A stretch of DNA of 51,400 nucleotides from Candidatus Saccharimonadota bacterium. Lineage in GTDB: Bacteria > Patescibacteriota > Saccharimonadia > Saccharimonadales > 2-12-FULL-41-12. Positions 1,996-49,206 of the stretch are shown in pieces. The notes beneath the pieces were generated by a model, which was not told the origin of the DNA, did no database searches, and saw only the letters and a list, made by a program, of their open reading frames with translations. Position 1 is the stretch's first letter. The number at the start of each line of letters is the position of its first letter. The DNA lies in the NCBI GenBank assembly GCA_022842995.1, contig JALHOM010000008.1:1-51400 (forward strand). The letters are read 5' to 3'. Made by a program: the position numbers and the translations under genes.

Positions 1996-3270
1996 ATGGC
2001 AGATTTTCGTTCACGACAAGTCGATAAGCGTCCTAGGAGAGACCGCAGTTCTTCGCAAATGGGGACCGAACCTAGTCGAAAGCATAAGCCAGACTATCTT
2101 CTGTTGATCATTTCGTTACTTCTGTGTGTGGTGGGGCTTATCGTGGTTTACGCAATCAGTCCTGGATTGGCTATTACGAATAATGTCGATAATAACTTTT
2201 ACGTTATTAAACAGTCTGTGGCGATTGTGCTGGGATTGATCGCCTTTACGATTTTTGCGTTATTGAAACTAGAAGTTTTGCAGTATTTTCGCAAGATTTT
2301 AATTGGCCTTGCAGTCGCCGGTGTGATCGCAGTCGAGGTCATGAATGATGGAACTTCGCGCTGGATCCAGATTGGAGGCTTATCTTTCCAGGTCGCCGAA
2401 CTAGTAAAATTAGCCTTGATAATCGGACTTGGCTATTTCTTGATCCAGAGACAGCGAGAAGGGCTTTTGGACGATACGCGAAAGACGCTGTTGCCGCTGA
2501 TGGCCGTTTTGCTATTAATCGGTATAGTTGTCGCGTTTATCGAGAGTGATCTTGGTTCAACGGCTGTTATGGTAGCGATAATGGCAGCCATGGCTTTTGT
2601 TATCGGTTTGCCTCTTAAAAAAATTGGTATAGTTGCCGCAATAATCACAGTAGGGACGGTGTTGGCAGTAGTGTCGACGCCATATAGGCGGGATAGAGTC
2701 TCGACGTTCCTTAATCCGACAAGCGATTGTCAGGACGCAGGTTACCAAGCGTGCCAAGCTCTTATTGCTGTTGGAAGCGGTGGAGTTATTGGTAAGGGCC
2801 TCGGCAACAGCGTGCAGGCTTATGGGTACTTGCCAGAAGCTGCCAATGATTCTATTTTTGCCGTATATGCTGAAAAATTTGGTTTTATCGGCAGTGTTAT
2901 TGTTTTGTTCCTATATGTATTGCTATTCTCGAGACTTAAACGGATTATTGAACGAACAGCAGATGGGTTCTCTCGTTTGATCGTTGTTGGTGTGCTGGCA
3001 TGGATTAGTACACAGGCCATTATAAATATTGGTGCAATGCTCGGTCTTTTGCCGCTTAAAGGTATAACTTTGCCATTTATCAGCTATGGAGGCACGTCAA
3101 TTCTGTTTATTATGGCGGCTCTCGGGATTGTTTATAACATATCGCGGTATACTAATTATGAAACCATTCGTAGCGCCAAAATAGATAGGGGAAACAATAG
3201 CTATGACAATAGTCTTCTGCGGGGGCGGGTCAGCCGGACATATAACACCTCTGCTGGCCGTCGCACGTGA
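1996..3270 (+). CDS. ftsW: SEDS-family peptidoglycan polymerase FtsW
   Basis: RWIQIGGLSFQVAELVK, DLGS, YLPEAANDSIFA and GITLPFISYGGTS motifs; dcw context. Confidence 0.95.
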   Translation: MADFRSRQVDKRPRRDRSSSQMGTEPSRKHKPDYLLLIISLLLCVVGLIVVYAISPGLAITNNVDNNFYVIKQSVAIVLGLIAFTIFALLKLEVLQYFRKILIGLAVAGVIAVEVMNDGTSRWIQIGGLSFQVAELVKLALIIGLGYFLIQRQREGLLDDTRKTLLPLMAVLLLIGIVVAFIESDLGSTAVMVAIMAAMAFVIGLPLKKIGIVAAIITVGTVLAVVSTPYRRDRVSTFLNPTSDCQDAGYQACQALIAVGSGGVIGKGLGNSVQAYGYLPEAANDSIFAVYAEKFGFIGSVIVLFLYVLLFSRLKRIIERTADGFSRLIVVGVLAWISTQAIINIGAMLGLLPLKGITLPFISYGGTSILFIMAALGIVYNISRYTNYETIRSAKIDRGNNSYDNSLLRGRVSRTYNTSAGRRT

Positions 3271-4414
3271 ACTAAGATCTCGTTCGTTGAAAGATCTGCG
3301 CTTGGTGTATGTCGGCGAAAAAGGTGGGAAGCTGTCCTTTATCGCAGAGGATAGTGGTCTGTTTGACGAGTGCTATAGTATTCGTGCCGGTAAATATCGT
3401 CGGTATGCATCTGATAGCTGGTTGACGAAGTTGCTCGATCTGCGGACAAACCTCCTGAATCTCCGAGACGGATTTTGGTTTACGATAGGCATCGTGCAGG
3501 CCAGGCGCCTCATGAAGCGGCTTAATCCGGACGCTGTATTTTTAAAAGGTGGCTTTGTTTGCGTTCCTTTGAGTATGGCGGCAGCTAAAACAGAGGCATT
3601 TATCGTGACTCACGATTCCGACGCTATTGCGGGCTTGTCGAATCGACTGGCCGCTCGCTATGCTGACGTTATTTGCACCGGAATGCCTGAAGAATATTAT
3701 TCATATCCAAAGTCCAAAATGCTTTATACGGGGTTGCCGTTAGATAAAGGATATCGACCGTATTCAACTCATGAAAAACGGTTTTTGAAAGAAAAGTACG
3801 AGCTTAAATCATCATCCAAAGTTGTACTCGTCCTCGGCGGTAGCTTGGGTGCTCGCCGCTTAAACGAATGGTGCTCGAAGGCGCTTGACGCGATCGCGGT
3901 TACTGAGCCCAGCTTGCAGGCAATTATTATGTCGGGTAAAGGTAACGATGCTCAGGTTGCTGCTTTACGAAAAGGGTTGAAAAACCCCGATAATGTTCGG
4001 TTCATTGAGTTTAGCTCTGAGCTATTTCAGCTCATGGCCGTGGCGGACGTCGTCGTGACCCGTACAGGCGCCACCGCGATGGCCGAAGCTGGCGCCATGC
4101 AATGTGCCACCATCACAATTCCGAGTCCCGACCTATCCGGGGGTCACCAGGTTAAGAACGCCCAGATTTTATCAGAAGCCGACGCAACCATTTATATATC
4201 TGAAGATCAGATTGCAGGGAAGGGCGGATCCTCTGACATCCTCAAGGGTGCGATAGTCGACCTCTTGAACGACCGAAGTAGAGCGCTTGAAATAGGGAAG
4301 AAGTTATCGGACTTTTACCCCAGCCAGTCGGCAAGTGTAGCTCTCGCAGATTTGCTCACCAAAAAAACATCCAACAAAGAGGCAAGGTCCTCAGGATCGA
4401 AGGCTGAAAAATAG
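3203..4414 (+). CDS. murG: Lipid II GlcNAc transferase MurG
   Basis: GGGSAGHITP, KGGFV, HDSDA, GGSLGA and HQVKNA motifs. Confidence 0.95.
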   Translation: MTIVFCGGGSAGHITPLLAVARELRSRSLKDLRLVYVGEKGGKLSFIAEDSGLFDECYSIRAGKYRRYASDSWLTKLLDLRTNLLNLRDGFWFTIGIVQARRLMKRLNPDAVFLKGGFVCVPLSMAAAKTEAFIVTHDSDAIAGLSNRLAARYADVICTGMPEEYYSYPKSKMLYTGLPLDKGYRPYSTHEKRFLKEKYELKSSSKVVLVLGGSLGARRLNEWCSKALDAIAVTEPSLQAIIMSGKGNDAQVAALRKGLKNPDNVRFIEFSSELFQLMAVADVVVTRTGATAMAEAGAMQCATITIPSPDLSGGHQVKNAQILSEADATIYISEDQIAGKGGSSDILKGAIVDLLNDRSRALEIGKKLSDFYPSQSASVALADLLTKKTSNKEARSSGSKAEK

Positions 4415-10183: not shown

Positions 10184-10500
10184 TAACAGCTACCCTCCCA
10201 ATAGAAGGTTGCTCGTGCTTGGTTATAACTGTAATGAACCATGATAGCAGTGAGGATTTTTTGCGGGCCATGAAGACCATTTATTACTATTTTTGGCATA
10301 CTTTCTTCTTGTGCTTACTATAGATTACTGCAAAGCCGAGGGCTATGCAAAGCCGATTGTCGGCCTTTTCTCAGTTGCAGGACGTTGATCTTGCCTGAGT
10401 TTGTTGAGCCGTTTGTTTTTGGGCTCGCAAGGAATAACCCTACCGTATTTGAAATACCTTTGCAAGTCATTAATTGTTACGTTGTGGGTTTACGACGCAG

Positions 10501-19859: not shown

Positions 19860-20029
19860 TACATAGCCCTGCCTTTATTCGGGATAAGATGCATTGACGT
19901 AACAGATAACATCGTTCGGTATAGCCCACTTTTTACCATAATCGTGATAGTTAGAAGTATAGCCCACAAACACCGTAAATGCCACCAATAACGGAGACTC
20001 ATATTTGACAATCATGGTATAATATTACA

Positions 20030-46345: not shown

Positions 46346-47107
46346 TCAAAGGAGCGACGATACGACGGCTTCGTAGAGTTTATGTGGCTGCTGGATGGCC
46401 CAGGCGGCAGTCTTGCCAGATGATGACGTTGGTGTTCGGGATTCACAAACAGCGCCACGACTTACTGCCCATTGACTATCGTTGTGCGAGGTCAGAAGGA
46501 CGGCCTCGGTATGCTGTGAAATAAATATCAGGGCTTGGTGGAAGTTGCGAATCGTTATGTCATTGGTTATTGCTATCGTGCTGCCTAGTTCTATGGCGAG
46601 GCTTCTGAGCTGATCGAAGTTAAGGCACAGGACGGTTGAGCTAGGGCGGTTTAAGAATTTGCTCCACCCAGAAGCAAAGCTTTGGTAAGCGTCTTGATCA
46701 AACACCATGATCCCAGGATATTTGGTGATAAATTTTTCCAGCAGTAAACTGGTTTCGCTGTTTTTACCCAAATCACCGGCGAGCAAAACCCCGTCGGACC
46801 AGTGTGCGATATCTTGAAGTTCGGTGAGAGCTTTTTGGCCAAAGCTTCCGCTCGGCGTCGACGGCGCGTACTCGATATGTGGTAAATCTTTGGTGAGTTT
46901 GCGCAGTGAATCTGGCAGCAGTAAACGTATAGTGCCCGCTCCCGCTGTCTCTGCATGAGAAAACAGAGCAGATACATGACCAAGGTCCCCACCGCCTCCA
47001 CCGACAATCAAAAGCTTGCCTGCTCCATGAGCCGTCTCTGGTCGCGCCCACACGACGTCAGGAAACGCAGGATTGTCTGGCGTTTGGGTATTTTTATCTA
47101 TGCCCAT
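46346..47107 (-). CDS. Degenerate NAD(P)HX dehydratase (NnrD/YjeF C-domain)-like protein
   Basis: GKLLIVGG, AGAGTIRL, DGVLLAGDLG; canonical C-terminal ATP motif not recognisable. Confidence 0.7.
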   Translation of the reverse strand: MGIDKNTQTPDNPAFPDVVWARPETAHGAGKLLIVGGGGGDLGHVSALFSHAETAGAGTIRLLLPDSLRKLTKDLPHIEYAPSTPSGSFGQKALTELQDIAHWSDGVLLAGDLGKNSETSLLLEKFITKYPGIMVFDQDAYQSFASGWSKFLNRPSSTVLCLNFDQLRSLAIELGSTIAITNDITIRNFHQALIFISQHTEAVLLTSHNDSQWAVSRGAVCESRTPTSSSGKTAAWAIQQPHKLYEAVVSSLL

Positions 47108-48141
47108 ATTTCGTTAACGAGTTCAGGACCATATGTTGCTAAACTGCCGGGGCAAAGTACCCTCGATGCAGTGCGCGGGGGTTTTGGCTTCTTAGGGTCG
47201 TATTGTTGAGTCGCATCAAGCTCATGCGAAGGCAGCTCTCTATGGGTGTGAAAATCACTCACGATGGGTAGCATAAGTCCGTGTATTCTTGGTCTTACTA
47301 CTCTTCCGTTAACGAGTAGACTAGACATGCCTTTTTTAATCGCGCCTATGCCGCTTATTGCTGAAGCTATTTGAAATCGGTCTTCCGATCCAGCGGTTGC
47401 GCTGAAAGGATCAACAAGCACAATTTTATCAGGGTGCTCGGTGTTTAATAATTTGATAAAGCCGGAATCGCTGGTTGATGAAGTAGTTTGCTGTTCGCAT
47501 ATCTTCAAGATGAAAAGACCAATATCTCTACCACCTTTCTTTCTGAGAGTGTCGCGAATGTATTTATACGCATCTAGAGTTTTTTTACTCACTTTGGCAC
47601 CCGGTAAAACAGGTATTTCGAGAAAAATGGGATTATGGAGATTTGCTAATAAATCGGTTTTTTCAACCAGGCTAGCCTCTTGCTCATCGGTGCTCAGTCC
47701 GGCGATGACTCTTCTGCCAATTAGCCAGTTTTCGTCTATGAGCCTCTCCTCGAGTGCTATTGGACCTAAGTGGCGTACAACCTGACTGCAGCCGGCATGC
47801 ATGAGTTGGACATATGAGCTGGCGGTGGATTCTACTATTTCGTTGTGCTCATCTGCACTAAGGTCCTTTAGCTCGTCGTCTTTATATGATGATGGATCTT
47901 GGAGCAAAAGTATACTCGAAGGAAAATGTTGACGAATCCGTTGTCGTTCTTCGGATATTCTACTGGCGGTTACTGCCGCCTCTTTCAGGTCTGGGTTGTG
48001 TAATTGCACGGTGTGCTTAATCAGAAATACCCCGGTGCTTAATCGACCTTGAGCGCTTTCAAGAAGCGCTTGGGTAGGCGCATCTGTTTCCGTAAAAGGA
48101 AATATAGATTGTGGTCTAGCGGATTCTGTCGTTGTGTTCAT
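47098..48141 (-). CDS. Hypothetical protein, possibly a degenerate class-I DAHP synthase fold
   Basis: Spacing and partial motifs resemble AroG/F; catalytic motifs are absent. Confidence 0.5.
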   Translation of the reverse strand: MNTTTESARPQSIFPFTETDAPTQALLESAQGRLSTGVFLIKHTVQLHNPDLKEAAVTASRISEERQRIRQHFPSSILLLQDPSSYKDDELKDLSADEHNEIVESTASSYVQLMHAGCSQVVRHLGPIALEERLIDENWLIGRRVIAGLSTDEQEASLVEKTDLLANLHNPIFLEIPVLPGAKVSKKTLDAYKYIRDTLRKKGGRDIGLFILKICEQQTTSSTSDSGFIKLLNTEHPDKIVLVDPFSATAGSEDRFQIASAISGIGAIKKGMSSLLVNGRVVRPRIHGLMLPIVSDFHTHRELPSHELDATQQYDPKKPKPPRTASRVLCPGSLATYGPELVNEIWA

Positions 48142-48168
48142 CTTAATTTAAGTCGTAGGTTAGTCGTT

Positions 48169-48198
48169 AAAAAAGCCGCCTGGGTTTCGCAGGCGGCT
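48169..48198 (-). terminator. Intrinsic terminator in the 5' leader of the 48141 gene
   Basis: 9-bp stem AGCCGCCTG/CAGGCGGCT followed by TTTTT on the minus strand. Confidence 0.85.
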
Positions 48199-48264
48199 CG
48201 CTAACTTTGTTTCGATGTTATTTGCCGTATAAGTAGCCTGCTTTATCGTGAGCTAAAAAAACAA

Positions 48265-48321
48265 TTAGCGGACACGAATCGCCACTAGTTGCATCTTTAA
48301 TGCGTAAAACACAGCTCTCAT
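48265..48321 (-). CDS. Candidate 18-aa leader peptide MRAVFYALKMQLVAIRVR
   Basis: ATG 9 nt after TGGTATAAT; upstream of the terminator. Confidence 0.4.
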   Translation of the reverse strand: MRAVFYALKMQLVAIRVR

Positions 48322-48353
48322 ACTGAATATATTATACCACTTCGAGTCAAGAC

Positions 48354-49145
48354 TTAGGCAATCTCGACAGATATCGGACAGTGGTCAGAGCCGAAAACTT
48401 GGTCGTGGATAGACGCTTTGCTGACGCGATCTTTTAGGCTGCTGGATACCATGAAATAATCTATCCGCCAGCCAACGTTTCTAGCGCGGGCGTTGGCCCA
48501 GTGGGTCCACCAGGTGTAGTGCCCGTTGCCTTGGGTAAATAACCTGAATGTATCTATAAAACCCTGGTCGATCATGTTTTCGAAGCCTTCTCGCTCTTCG
48601 TTAGTAAAGCCGTGTTTACCGACATTTGGCTTGGGATTTGCCAGGTCGTCTTCGGTATGGGCCACGTTGAAGTCGCCGCAAAAAATCACCGGTTTGGTGG
48701 CCTCAAGTTGCTTCATATATTCCAAAAAGGCCTTGTCCCAGGCTTGATGTCGGAGCTTAAGACGACTGAGGTCGCCTTTGCTGTTGGGTGTATAAACAGT
48801 GACGAGGTAAAAATCTTCAAATTCGGCGGCCAGTACCCTGCCCTCTTCGTTGGGGTGGCCGTATTTGTCCTCTAGCTCGTATTTGTCGGCGATGCTTCCC
48901 GGGATATCGTTTATGACGCTGATCGGTTTAACTTTGGTAAAAATTGCTGTGCCGGAGTAACCTTTTTTGGTAGCTGAATTCCAGTATTCTTCGTATTCCG
49001 CCAGTTCCACAGGAGACTGCCCTTGCTCCGCTTTGGTTTCCTGCAAGCAAACAATATCAGGCTGCTCGTCTGCTATGAATTTCTGAAATAATTCTTTGCC
49101 CCATACCGCACGGATGCCATTGACGTTCCAAGAGTAAATTTTCAT
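48354..49145 (-). CDS. xth: Exodeoxyribonuclease III
   Basis: SWNVNGIRA, LQETK, GDFNVAH, GWRIDY, SDHCP; start ATG at 49145 preferred over 49181. Confidence 0.97.
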   Translation of the reverse strand: MKIYSWNVNGIRAVWGKELFQKFIADEQPDIVCLQETKAEQGQSPVELAEYEEYWNSATKKGYSGTAIFTKVKPISVINDIPGSIADKYELEDKYGHPNEEGRVLAAEFEDFYLVTVYTPNSKGDLSRLKLRHQAWDKAFLEYMKQLEATKPVIFCGDFNVAHTEDDLANPKPNVGKHGFTNEEREGFENMIDQGFIDTFRLFTQGNGHYTWWTHWANARARNVGWRIDYFMVSSSLKDRVSKASIHDQVFGSDHCPISVEIA

Positions 49146-49206
49146 ATGTTTATAGTAGCTGTCGTGGCAGCCAAGAAGCAAATTCTTCGTAGATATTCTT
49201 TATCAG

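What the first reader, a model, noticed from the sequence alone, without database searches (positions are those of the whole stretch)
48142..48345. Candidate ribosome-mediated attenuator with a leaderless Phe-Tyr leader peptide
Seen on the minus strand: TGGTATAAT, 9 nt, then an 18-codon ORF (MRAVFYALKMQLVAIRVR), then GCAGGC (48236-48241), which can pair with the terminator's 5' arm (48189-48194), then a 9-bp terminator with a U-tract about 27 nt before the 48141 start. CGCTAA at the uORF stop can pair with TTAGCG next to the terminator. Leader-peptide attenuation of aromatic pathway genes is established in other bacteria. Finding this layout ahead of a possible DAHP-synthase relic in a presumed auxotroph is unexpected. 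There are only two aromatic codons, so the sensed signal is uncertain.
Basis: partly seen in the sequence, partly recalled or inferred. Interest (0 to 1): 0.65.

Follow-up and report, generated by a model that had tools for sequence, protein, structure and literature searches.

The report
Remodelled aromatic attenuator without its gene
The promoter, 18-codon mini-gene, long RNA hairpin and terminator are all real and sit exactly where related Saccharibacteria carry a Phe/Tyr/Trp-sensing leader-peptide switch for DAHP synthase, but this copy has lost the sensing core and now precedes an orphan gene, so it is most likely a remodelled leftover.

Summary
Three are more than chance:
- The TGGTATAAT promoter type is strongly intergenic, and in this genome it often starts leaderless genes.
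- The 97-nt hairpin is strand-specific (z = -3.4).
- The terminator is strong.

Two are at chance level: the Phe-Tyr pair (15% of background mini-ORFs have one) and the GCAGGC antiterminator (p = 0.17).

Comparison with relatives gives the context. In this Saccharibacteria family, 14 of 30 genomes carry DAHP synthase. Upstream DNA was available for 13 of them, and all 13 show an aromatic-rich mini-ORF (for example MSKRYFNLFWFT...) plus a terminator. In G007 and G042 this attenuator lies directly behind xth and upstream of the orf253 homologue, the same slot as here.

The window's copy keeps the promoter, a leaderless mini-ORF and a CCGCC-arm terminator. It lacks the aromatic run, the in-ORF antiterminator and the family spacing. 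Its downstream orf347 is a complete orphan with no detectable DAHP synthase ancestry.

An intact aromatic attenuator exists elsewhere in this genome, before a divergent DAHPS-like gene and trpS.

Verdict: a remodelled or decaying descendant of a real attenuator family. Specific Phe/Tyr sensing is possible but unproven. No RNA data could be obtained.

The parts
48354..49148 (-). xth (exodeoxyribonuclease III family), the upstream gene
   Evidence: Pfam Exo_endo_phos, E 2.5e-33. It is found in all 25 relatives searched.
48345..48350 (-). TTGACT box 8 nt before TATAAT; a promoter-associated element in this genome
   Evidence: TTGAC lies 7-8 nt before TATAAT in 7 of 70 intergenic TGNTATAAT sites. 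The same arrangement follows xth in G005, G002 and G042.
48331..48339 (-). Extended -10 promoter element TGGTATAAT
   Evidence: 23 of 27 TGGTATAAT and 70-73 of 87 TGNTATAAT sites in the genome are intergenic. 25 of them lie 4-14 nt before a long ORF.
48265..48321 (-). Leaderless 18-codon mini-ORF MRAVFYALKMQLVAIRVR plus its stop codon
   Evidence: Read directly. The 9-nt spacing from the -10 falls within the 4-14 nt range of this genome's leaderless genes. The length is what chance would give. Global peptide alignment to the G004 leader gives p about 0.02-0.03. An HMM test gave no signal.
48304..48309 (-). TTT TAC (Phe5-Tyr6), the only aromatic codons
   Evidence: an adjacent aromatic pair occurs in 15% of background mini-ORFs. 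The family leaders have 4-6 aromatic codons including Trp.
48227..48323 (-). Long irregular hairpin (39 pairs) enclosing the start codon and the whole mini-ORF ('region 1:2')
   Evidence: -32.4 kcal/mol, z = -3.4, matched by 0 of 200 shuffles. The opposite strand gives z = -0.4.
48236..48241 (-). GCAGGC, the candidate antiterminator strand; it lies in the 3' half of the long hairpin
   Evidence: It pairs with GCCUGC (48194-48189) in MFE folds when a ribosome masks codons 1-9. The duplex is not better than shuffles, p = 0.17. It lies 25 nt after the stop codon, unlike the family leaders.
48169..48198 (-). Intrinsic terminator: AGCCGCCUG / CAGGCGGCU stem followed by U6
   Evidence: -17.4 kcal/mol. 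It is the only one of 67 perfect-stem terminator-like sites in the genome with a CCGCC arm, which is the arm type of the DAHPS attenuators of G004, G007, G042, G009 and G016. The only DNA similarity to those leaders is CAGGCGG-TTTTTTAA.
47098..48141 (-). orf347, an orphan protein gene in the position that DAHP synthase occupies in relatives
   Evidence: No homologue among 5.8 billion or 1.84 billion proteins. No Pfam or NCBIfam family. The codon score is coding-like only in this frame. Synteny is shown.
46346..47107 (-). orf253, a conserved gene weakly YjeF_C-like; it overlaps orf347 by 10 nt and ends the conserved slot
   Evidence: Homologues follow DAHPS or xth in relatives. NCBIfam PRK10565 gives a weak hit, E 0.0075.

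Best explanation
The 212-nt spacer descends from the lineage's leader-peptide attenuator for aromatic amino acids. That attenuator guarded a DAHP synthase gene placed between xth and orf253. In this genome the DAHP synthase is gone and an orphan gene, orf347, occupies its place.

The spacer keeps three parts of the old control region:
- the leaderless promoter;
- a short translated frame;
- a strong intrinsic terminator 33 nt before the next start codon.

It has lost the sensing core of the family: the Tyr/Phe/Trp codon run, and the antiterminator strand inside the reading frame.

Today it most likely does two things. It ends xth and leader transcripts, and it lets only a fraction read through into orf347-orf253. 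Any remaining control would come from whether a ribosome sits on the first third of the mini-ORF. A ribosome there opens the long hairpin and frees a weak antiterminator. Control by Phe/Tyr supply as such is less likely.

Shown: the parts, their statistics, the synteny, the family switch in relatives, and the lack of DAHP synthase signal in orf347.
Inferred: descent from the family attenuator, transcription start and termination, and leaky read-through.
For: Synteny:
- G007 has xth, leader, DAHPS, orf253.
- G042 has xth, leader, DAHPS, pepE-like, orf253.
- G004, in the same genus, has xth, NUDIX, leader, DAHPS, pepE-like, orf253.
- The window has xth, spacer, orf347, orf253.

The family switch is real:
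- 14 of 30 family genomes have PF00793.
- All 13 with upstream DNA have an aromatic mini-ORF plus terminator.
- Their antiterminator strand lies 15-35 nt before the stop codon. The arm sequences differ between genomes but stay complementary.
- The antiterminator duplex has p <= 0.05 in 10 of 13 leaders.
- The terminator arm is released 1-2 codons after the aromatic run.

What the window keeps:
- a TTGAC-N-TGGTATAAT promoter as in G005, G002 and G042;
- leaderless spacing;
- a T-run 33 nt before the start codon, within the family range of 19-41 nt;
- a CCGCC-arm terminator that is unique in this genome;
- marginal peptide similarity to the same-genus leader, p 0.02-0.03.

What the window lacks:
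- the aromatic run;
- an in-ORF antiterminator;
- the family spacing, with 66 nt from stop codon to terminator arm against 21-39 nt;
- any dependence on codon position.

An intact aromatic attenuator elsewhere in this genome shows what a working copy looks like here.
Against: - The long hairpin is strand-specific and significantly stable. A purely decaying relic should not keep such a structure.
- MFE folds reproduce a coherent 1:2 / 2:3 / 3:4 logic.
- Sequence homology of the mini-ORF to the family leaders is not demonstrated. nhmmer, a peptide HMM and local DNA alignment were all negative outside the terminator.
- orf253 is conserved and lies behind the terminator, so read-through or an internal promoter must exist. 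That leaves room for real regulation.
Confidence: 0.5

Rival explanations
1. The element would be a working four-region (trp/phe-type) attenuator that senses Phe/Tyr-tRNA.
- A ribosome stalled at TTT-TAC (codons 5-6) keeps the 5' strand of the long hairpin occupied.
- GCAGGC then pairs with the terminator's 5' arm, and transcription reads into orf347-orf253.
- With ample charged tRNA the ribosome leaves, the long hairpin re-forms and the terminator acts.
For: - MFE folds with ribosome masks behave exactly this way.
- The hairpin is significant and strand-specific.
- The Phe-Tyr codons lie in its 5' strand, at the same codon positions (5-6) as Tyr-Phe in the G004, G007 and G042 leaders.
- The C. 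glutamicum AroR leader works with only Phe-Tyr-Phe (PMC11802643).
- The lineage uses such switches.
Against: - The two aromatic codons and the 6-bp antiterminator are both at chance level.
- The antiterminator (6 + 3 bp across a 9-nt bulge) must compete with a 9-10 bp terminator of -17.4 kcal/mol.
- Ensemble folding shows no difference between ribosome positions. The terminator arm is paired with probability 0.8 at every codon and 0.6 with no ribosome.
- At equilibrium the terminator always wins.
- The downstream genes have no known link to aromatic amino acids.
- The start codon itself is buried in the hairpin.
Confidence: 0.2
2. The hairpin and terminator are only the 3' end of the xth transcript. 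The promoter-like motif and the mini-ORF are incidental, and the element has no descent from or relation to the attenuator family.
For: - No other terminator follows xth.
- The ORF length, the ATG spacing and the aromatic pair are all compatible with chance.
- No sequence homology of the ORF to family leaders was found.
Against: - TGGTATAAT together with a TTGAC box is a highly specific intergenic signal here. It is conserved behind xth in G005, G002 and G042, where it drives the next gene or leader.
- The attenuator occupies this same slot in G007 and G042.
- The CCGCC-arm terminator is unique in this genome and typical of the family.
Confidence: 0.13
3. The promoter-to-terminator unit is now a free-standing gene. 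It would encode either a roughly 150-nt structured small RNA, comparable to attenuator-derived sRNAs such as rnTrpL, or an 18-residue basic amphipathic peptide acting in trans.
For: - It has its own promoter, a stable strand-specific 5' hairpin and a strong terminator, which is the usual sRNA anatomy.
- Attenuator leaders that act in trans are documented in Sinorhizobium (titles and abstracts of PMC7968998 and PMC7298713, listed).
Against: - No Rfam family matches. The best hits are 17 bits, E above 1.
- There is no second copy in the genome and no conservation in 40 relatives.
- No target or partner is evident.
- The peptide is too short and too charged for a membrane toxin.
Confidence: 0.1

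Closest known systems
Saccharibacteria aromatic leader-peptide attenuators upstream of DAHP synthase. They are uncatalogued. I saw them here in G004, G007, G042, G009, G016, G018, G044, G045, G011, G010, G017, G043 and G008, and in this genome at C6:16345-16480.
   Same: - Same genomic slot, behind xth and before the orf253 homologue.
- Promoter of the TGNTATAAT type placed 6-11 nt before the ATG.
- Short ORF.
- CCGCC-arm intrinsic terminator about 30 nt before the next start codon.
   Different: - No Tyr/Phe/Trp run (two aromatic codons against 4-6, and no Trp).
- The antiterminator is not inside the ORF.
- 66 nt from stop codon to terminator, against 21-39 nt.
- An extra 97-nt hairpin.
- A stronger terminator.
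- The downstream gene is an orphan, not a PF00793 protein.
aroR leader upstream of aroF (DAHP synthase) in Corynebacterium glutamicum. Source: Neshat et al. 2014, as summarised in PMC11802643.
   Same: Ribosome-mediated attenuation of a DAHP synthase operon by a short leader peptide with few aromatic codons (Phe-Tyr-Phe).
   Different: - A different phylum and no sequence relation.
- In the window the controlled gene is not a DAHP synthase.
- Sensing is unproven here.
Escherichia coli pheL/trpL four-region attenuators (Rfam RF01859 Phe_leader, RF00513 Trp_leader)
   Same: - The window's RNA can be drawn as region 1 (holding the regulatory codons) paired to region 2.
- Region 2 alternatively pairs to region 3.
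- Regions 3:4 form the terminator.
   Different: - Rfam score of 17.4 bits against a gathering score of 55.
- A leaderless start with no Shine-Dalgarno sequence.
- Only two regulatory codons.
- The 2:3 helix is weak and at chance level.
Leaderless short-ORF attenuators of Actinobacteria, for example the polycysteine uORFs of mycobacteria. This is from my own knowledge and was not checked here.
   Same: A leader peptide translated from a leaderless transcript gates downstream operon expression.
   Different: The sensed residue, the lineage and the RNA architecture all differ, and no homology is implied.

Membership tests
Saccharibacteria DAHPS-linked aromatic attenuator (two-helix, leaderless design) | Promoter-proximal mini-ORF of about 19-29 codons | tested here: met
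   18 codons, with TGGTATAAT 9 nt upstream. Family ORFs have 19-29 codons.
Saccharibacteria DAHPS-linked aromatic attenuator (two-helix, leaderless design) | Cluster of 4-6 Tyr/Phe/Trp codons including a Trp-Phe core | tested here: not met
   Only Phe5-Tyr6 and no Trp. All 13 relatives and the C6 copy have the cluster.
Saccharibacteria DAHPS-linked aromatic attenuator (two-helix, leaderless design) | Antiterminator strand inside the ORF, 15-35 nt before the stop codon and complementary to the terminator's 5' arm | tested here: not met
   The best duplex starts 25 nt after the stop codon, p = 0.17. The only in-ORF complement is 4 bp, GGCG:CGCC, read.
Saccharibacteria DAHPS-linked aromatic attenuator (two-helix, leaderless design) | Spacing of 21-39 nt from stop codon to terminator arm, and terminator 19-41 nt before the gene | tested here: inconclusive
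   The first spacing is 66 nt, outside the range. The second is 33 nt, inside it.
Saccharibacteria DAHPS-linked aromatic attenuator (two-helix, leaderless design) | State of the terminator arm switches with ribosome position just after the sensor codons | tested here: not met
   In the ensemble proxy the window stays at 0.7-0.8 at all codons. Most relatives drop from 1.0 to 0.0-0.4.
Saccharibacteria DAHPS-linked aromatic attenuator (two-helix, leaderless design) | Controlled gene is a DAHP synthase (PF00793) | tested here: not met
   orf347 has no Pfam hit. Its score against the family HMM ranks 583rd among about 2000 shuffles. hhalign gives P about 0.4.
Saccharibacteria DAHPS-linked aromatic attenuator (two-helix, leaderless design) | Synteny: behind xth and upstream of the orf253 homologue | tested here: met
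   G007 and G042 have the same order.
Saccharibacteria DAHPS-linked aromatic attenuator (two-helix, leaderless design) | Detectable sequence homology to family leaders | tested here: inconclusive
   Negative: no nhmmer hit at E <= 100, the peptide HMM score equals shuffles, and local DNA alignment finds only the terminator arm. Weakly positive: global peptide alignment to G004 gives p 0.02-0.03, and the CCGCC arm is 1 of 67.
Classical four-region leader-peptide attenuator (trpL/pheL type) | Stable 1:2 hairpin containing the regulatory codons | tested here: met
   Hairpin at 48323-48227, z = -3.4. The TTT-TAC codons lie in its 5' strand.
Classical four-region leader-peptide attenuator (trpL/pheL type) | 2:3 antiterminator mutually exclusive with the 3:4 terminator and stronger than chance | tested here: inconclusive
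   It forms in masked MFE folds. However p = 0.17 against shuffles, and it is never favoured once the 3' arm is present.
Classical four-region leader-peptide attenuator (trpL/pheL type) | Rfam Phe_leader or Trp_leader model at gathering score | tested here: not met
   RF01859 scores 17.4 bits against 55. The relatives' leaders also stay below threshold, at 32.4 and 29.6 bits.
Classical four-region leader-peptide attenuator (trpL/pheL type) | Read-through responds to charged-tRNA supply | not testable with these tools
DAHP synthase class I (for orf347, the supposed 'relic') | PF00793 match, or the GPCS(I/V)HD and KPR(T/S) motifs | tested here: not met
   - No family or structure match.
- No signal in six-frame HMM or cross-frame tblastn searches.
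- The single-sequence AlphaFold model has pLDDT 36 and is unusable.

The most novel reading that the evidence does not exclude
After loss of DAHP synthase the attenuator was not discarded but rebuilt. A two-helix, in-ORF design would have been converted into a trp-like four-region switch, made of a long anti-antiterminator hairpin and a new antiterminator. This switch still reads ribosome progress over a Phe-Tyr pair, and it now gates a lineage-specific orphan gene together with the conserved orf253. That would be a case of a regulatory RNA outliving its gene and being recruited to a new one.
Probability: 0.18. Interest if true: 0.6.

Novelty: new member of a known kind. Interest (0 to 1): 0.35.

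Why it matters
Ribosome-mediated attenuation is textbook biology. Saccharibacteria, however, are usually described as unable to make amino acids.

This window adds a different piece to that picture. It shows what becomes of such a switch when its biosynthetic gene disappears. The promoter and terminator persist, the sensor codons and the antiterminator are lost, and a new stable hairpin and an orphan gene appear in the same slot.

If transcript data showed regulated read-through, this would be a natural example of attenuator rewiring in a minimal genome. If not, it is a useful negative control. It shows which features (aromatic run, in-ORF antiterminator, fixed spacing) define the working family.

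Tried and rejected
- **DAHP synthase relic.** All of the following were negative for orf347, so the relic idea rests on position only:
  - Pfam and NCBIfam;
  - PDB sequence search;
  - searches of 5.8 billion and 1.84 billion proteins, which returned only orf347 itself;
  - a family-specific HMM on the protein and on six frames;
  - hhalign;
  - BLASTP against this genome's own DAHPS-like paralogue;
  - cross-frame tblastn.
  The single-sequence AlphaFold model was too poor (pLDDT 36) to send to fold search.
- **Relation of orf347 to the ORF299 and ORF297 orphans** in the same slot of G005 and G002: none found.
- **Repeat or mobile hairpin element:** there is no second copy in the genome.
- **Known RNA family:** nothing above chance.
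- **Conservation of this leader:**
  - no DNA match in 40 relatives;
  - the two Logan contigs are 100% identical;
  - two metagenome pattern scans found nothing.
- **Covariance model of the family:** not built. The MAFFT alignment of the 14 leaders did not put the variable terminator arms in register, and nhmmer had already failed.
- **Type I toxin reading of the peptide:** rejected because it has 18 residues, four of them basic, and no membrane-spanning stretch.

Full report
**What is in the sequence**

On the minus strand the order is as follows.
- The xth gene (Exo_endo_phos, E 2.5e-33) ends at 48354.
- A 212-nt spacer follows.
- A 347-codon ORF, orf347, starts at 48141.
- It overlaps by 10 nt a 253-codon ORF, orf253 (47107-46346).

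- TTGACT lies at 48350-48345 and TGGTATAAT at 48339-48331.
- Nine bases later comes ATG (48321-48319), followed by 18 codons (MRAVFYALKMQLVAIRVR) and a stop at 48267-48265.
- GCAGGC is at 48241-48236.
- A terminator, AGCCGCCUG/CAGGCGGCU plus U6, spans 48198-48169.
- It ends 27 nt before the orf347 start codon.

They cannot both form in one nested fold.

**Which parts exceed chance**

The genome is about 1.1 Mb, and earlier notes of this scan identify it as Saccharibacteria.
- TGNTATAAT occurs 87 times. 70-73 of these are intergenic, against about 17% intergenic DNA.
- 25 of the intergenic sites lie 4-14 nt before the start of a long ORF.
- Leaderless mRNAs are therefore common here, and the promoter of the finding is very probably real.
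- A TTGAC box 7-8 nt before TATAAT recurs at 7 of the 70 sites, this one included.

The RNA from 48323 to 48227 folds into a 39-pair hairpin of -32.4 kcal/mol, with z = -3.4. It encloses the start codon and the whole mini-ORF. The complementary strand gives z = -0.4, so the structure is specific to the transcribed strand. The terminator hairpin is -17.4 kcal/mol.

Other parts are at chance level.
- An ATG at this spacing followed by a short ORF occurs at about 4 of 41 other promoter motifs.
- Two adjacent aromatic residues occur in 15% of background mini-ORFs.
- The best pairing between the leader and the terminator's 5' arm is no better than in shuffles, p = 0.17.

**What relatives show**

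The spacer and orf347 have no DNA or protein match in 40 related genomes. The xth gene is present in all of them, which allows the neighbourhood to be compared.

Downstream of xth, relatives carry one of three things:
- the orf253 homologue directly (G001, G003, G025);
- a variable gene and then the orf253 homologue;
- in G007, a short leader followed by a true DAHP synthase (PF00793, E 1.8e-76) and then the orf253 homologue.

The G007 leader reads TGATATAAT, 9 nt, then ATG for MIKRYFGFFWFTAPKLAVSLVRIKK, then a terminator.

PF00793 is present in 14 of the 30 genomes of the family. Upstream DNA was available for 13 of them. All 13 have a mini-ORF with a Tyr/Phe/Trp cluster followed by an intrinsic terminator 19-41 nt before the gene.

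**How the family switch works, and what I tested**

In all 13 leaders the strand that pairs best with the terminator's 5' arm lies inside the mini-ORF, 15-35 nt before the stop codon. The duplex energies are -10.6 to -19.1 kcal/mol.

The arms differ between genomes (ACCGCC, ACCCCG, GTCCGC, GCTCGG and others), and the in-ORF strand changes with them. The duplex beats shuffles at p <= 0.05 in 10 of 13 leaders.

I folded each RNA up to the terminator loop while masking a ribosome footprint.
- The 5' arm is sequestered (probability about 1) while the A site is at or before the aromatic run.
- It is released (probability 0.0-0.4) one or two codons later in most leaders.

This is a two-helix attenuator. 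A ribosome stalled on the aromatic codons leaves the antiterminator free. A ribosome that moves on covers it, and the terminator forms.

Rfam does not hold this family. The best scores are 32.4 and 29.6 bits to Phe_leader, against a gathering score of 55. Full-text searches found no paper that joins Saccharibacteria with leader peptides or attenuation in a relevant context, and none of the ten top-ranked papers for leaderless plus Saccharibacteria/Patescibacteria/CPR contains the word leaderless.

Earlier agents of this scan reported the same family in other genomes. I reached it independently, from synteny, before reading those notes.

The closest described system is the aroR leader of aroF in Corynebacterium glutamicum. 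Its peptide has Phe-Tyr-Phe (PMC11802643).

**How the window's copy compares**

It shares with the family:
- the slot, since xth-leader-gene-orf253 is identical in order to G007 and close to G042 and G004;
- the promoter type, with TTGAC-N-TGGTATAAT also found behind xth in G005, G002 and G042;
- the leaderless spacing;
- the distance of 33 nt from T-run to start codon;
- a CCGCC-arm terminator.

That terminator arm is the only one of its kind among 67 terminator-like sites in this genome. It is the arm type of the G004, G007, G042, G009 and G016 attenuators.

It differs from the family in these ways:
- it has two aromatic codons and no Trp;
- it has no complementary strand inside the ORF;
- the distance from stop codon to terminator arm is 66 nt instead of 21-39 nt;
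- it has an additional long hairpin;
- its terminator is stronger.

Homology of the mini-ORF itself could not be shown.
- An nhmmer profile of the five nearest leaders does not find the spacer.
- A peptide HMM scores it like its own shuffles.
- Local DNA alignment finds only CAGGCGG-TTTTTTAA.
- A global peptide alignment to the same-genus G004 leader is marginal, p 0.02-0.03.

In the ensemble proxy the terminator arm is paired with probability 0.7-0.8 wherever the ribosome sits, and 0.6 with no ribosome. At equilibrium the terminator always wins.

- With a ribosome on Phe5 or Tyr6, GCAGGC pairs with GCCUGC.
- With no ribosome, or with a ribosome on the stop codon, the long hairpin forms and leaves the arm free.
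- Any ribosome on roughly the first two thirds of the ORF has the same effect as one on Phe5/Tyr6. The design therefore reports ribosome occupancy rather than Phe/Tyr supply specifically.

**The downstream gene**

orf347 has no homologue among 5.8 billion clustered proteins or 1.84 billion representatives, apart from itself.
- It has no Pfam, NCBIfam or PDB match.
- An HMM built from the 13 family DAHP synthases scores it no better than shuffled versions; it ranked 583rd among about 2000.
- Six-frame and cross-frame searches are empty.
- hhalign gives P about 0.4.
- The single-sequence structure model is unusable, with pLDDT 36.

Its codon usage is coding-like in its own frame only: 0.185, against -0.9 and -1.1 in the other two frames. 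It is therefore probably a real gene.

The 'DAHP synthase relic' idea rests on position alone. G005 and G002, in the same genus, carry other orphan ORFs of 299 and 297 residues in the same slot, directly behind the homologous promoter. These two are 37% identical to each other and unrelated to orf347 by sequence.

**State of the pathway**

Chorismate synthase (PF01264) is found in only two of the eight genera of the family. It is absent from the window's genus, including G004, and from G007 and G042, which still keep an attenuated DAHP synthase.

The window's genome has no canonical DAHP synthase. It does have a divergent DAHPS-like gene (PF00793, 41.9 bits) followed by trpS at C6:16523.
- That gene is preceded by an intact attenuator, MKIRNAGNYFWFYFRHSLGGYFDSAIK.
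- Its antiterminator lies in the ORF, 31 nt before the stop codon.
- The spacer from stop codon to terminator arm is 28 nt.

The organism therefore uses such switches, and the xth-linked one is the odd one out.

**Conclusion**

The most economical reading, at about 0.5, is a remodelled descendant of the family attenuator. It would have been left in place when the DAHP synthase of this slot was lost or replaced.
- It now serves mainly as terminator for xth and leader transcripts.
- Leaky or translation-dependent read-through would supply orf347 and the conserved orf253.

The significant, strand-specific hairpin is the main observation this reading does not fully explain. Lesser rivals are a plain xth terminator with incidental motifs (about 0.13) and a free-standing small RNA or peptide gene (about 0.1).

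No sequence variants or orthologues of this leader exist in the collections I could search.

Noticed in passing
L044, about 1320-1460 (G000:C6:16345-16480, outside the window): This genome has an intact aromatic attenuator. A mini-ORF (MKIRNAGNYFWFYFRHSLGGYFDSAIK) is followed by the AGCCGA/TCGGCT terminator. It sits before a divergent DAHPS-like gene (PF00793, 41.9 bits) and trpS. The geometry and the ribosome-mask behaviour match the family.
   Followed up: partly
window 10270-10320 (+), hairpin to about 10375: An aromatic-rich mini-ORF (MKTIYYYFWHTFFLCLL) is followed by a GCCGA...TCGGC hairpin. It lies in the 317-nt gap between two minus-strand genes, with no plus-strand gene behind it. Rfam finds nothing there at gathering score. 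It could be chance, an antisense element or a stranded attenuator.
   Followed up: partly
genome-wide; in the window e.g. 48331-48350 (-) and about 20000-20025 (+): The promoter architecture is unusual. TTGAC(A) lies only 7-8 nt before TATAAT at 7 of 70 intergenic TGNTATAAT sites, against one site at the canonical 17 nt. 25 of the 70 sites sit 4-14 nt before a long ORF, so these genes are leaderless. Only 34% of genes have an SD-like 4-mer.
   Followed up: partly
L007 2345-3244, L009 (reverse complement, about 2345-3238), window 47098-48141: The slot between xth and the orf253 homologue is hypervariable across the family. It holds DAHP synthase, a pepE-like gene, a HAD-like gene, a NUDIX gene, or mutually unrelated orphan ORFs of 299, 297 and 347 residues. 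The orphans are driven by the same conserved promoter.
   Followed up: partly
L038, L041, L042 and the family table: Several genera keep an attenuator-controlled DAHP synthase although no chorismate synthase is detectable in their genomes. These include the window's own genus (G004) and G007, G042, G009 and G016. What DAHP is used for there is unexplained.
   Followed up: no
L030-L043, genes flanking DAHP synthase: In this family DAHP synthase is embedded among peptidase-like genes, which I identified by eye from motifs and did not scan: prolyl-iminopeptidase-like (about 310 residues), peptidase-E-like (about 210 residues), and M20-like upstream. G008 has a chorismate mutase / prephenate dehydratase-like gene downstream.
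   Followed up: no
G000:C2, about 3250-3440 (minus strand, outside the window): A strong terminator (CGCGCTTT/AAAGCGCG) lies 26 nt before a 510-residue ORF and 133 nt after a response-regulator-like gene. There is no obvious leader peptide. It is another candidate leader or attenuator of unknown type.
   Followed up: no
L048 300-440 (minus strand; G000:C1, about 101000-101140): The leader of the genome's only PF00155 aminotransferase gene encodes MSYVGNNKLALALLAGDSLS. A 26-nt spacer, a terminator and a further 26 nt to the start codon follow. This is the same cassette geometry as the aromatic attenuators.
   Followed up: partly
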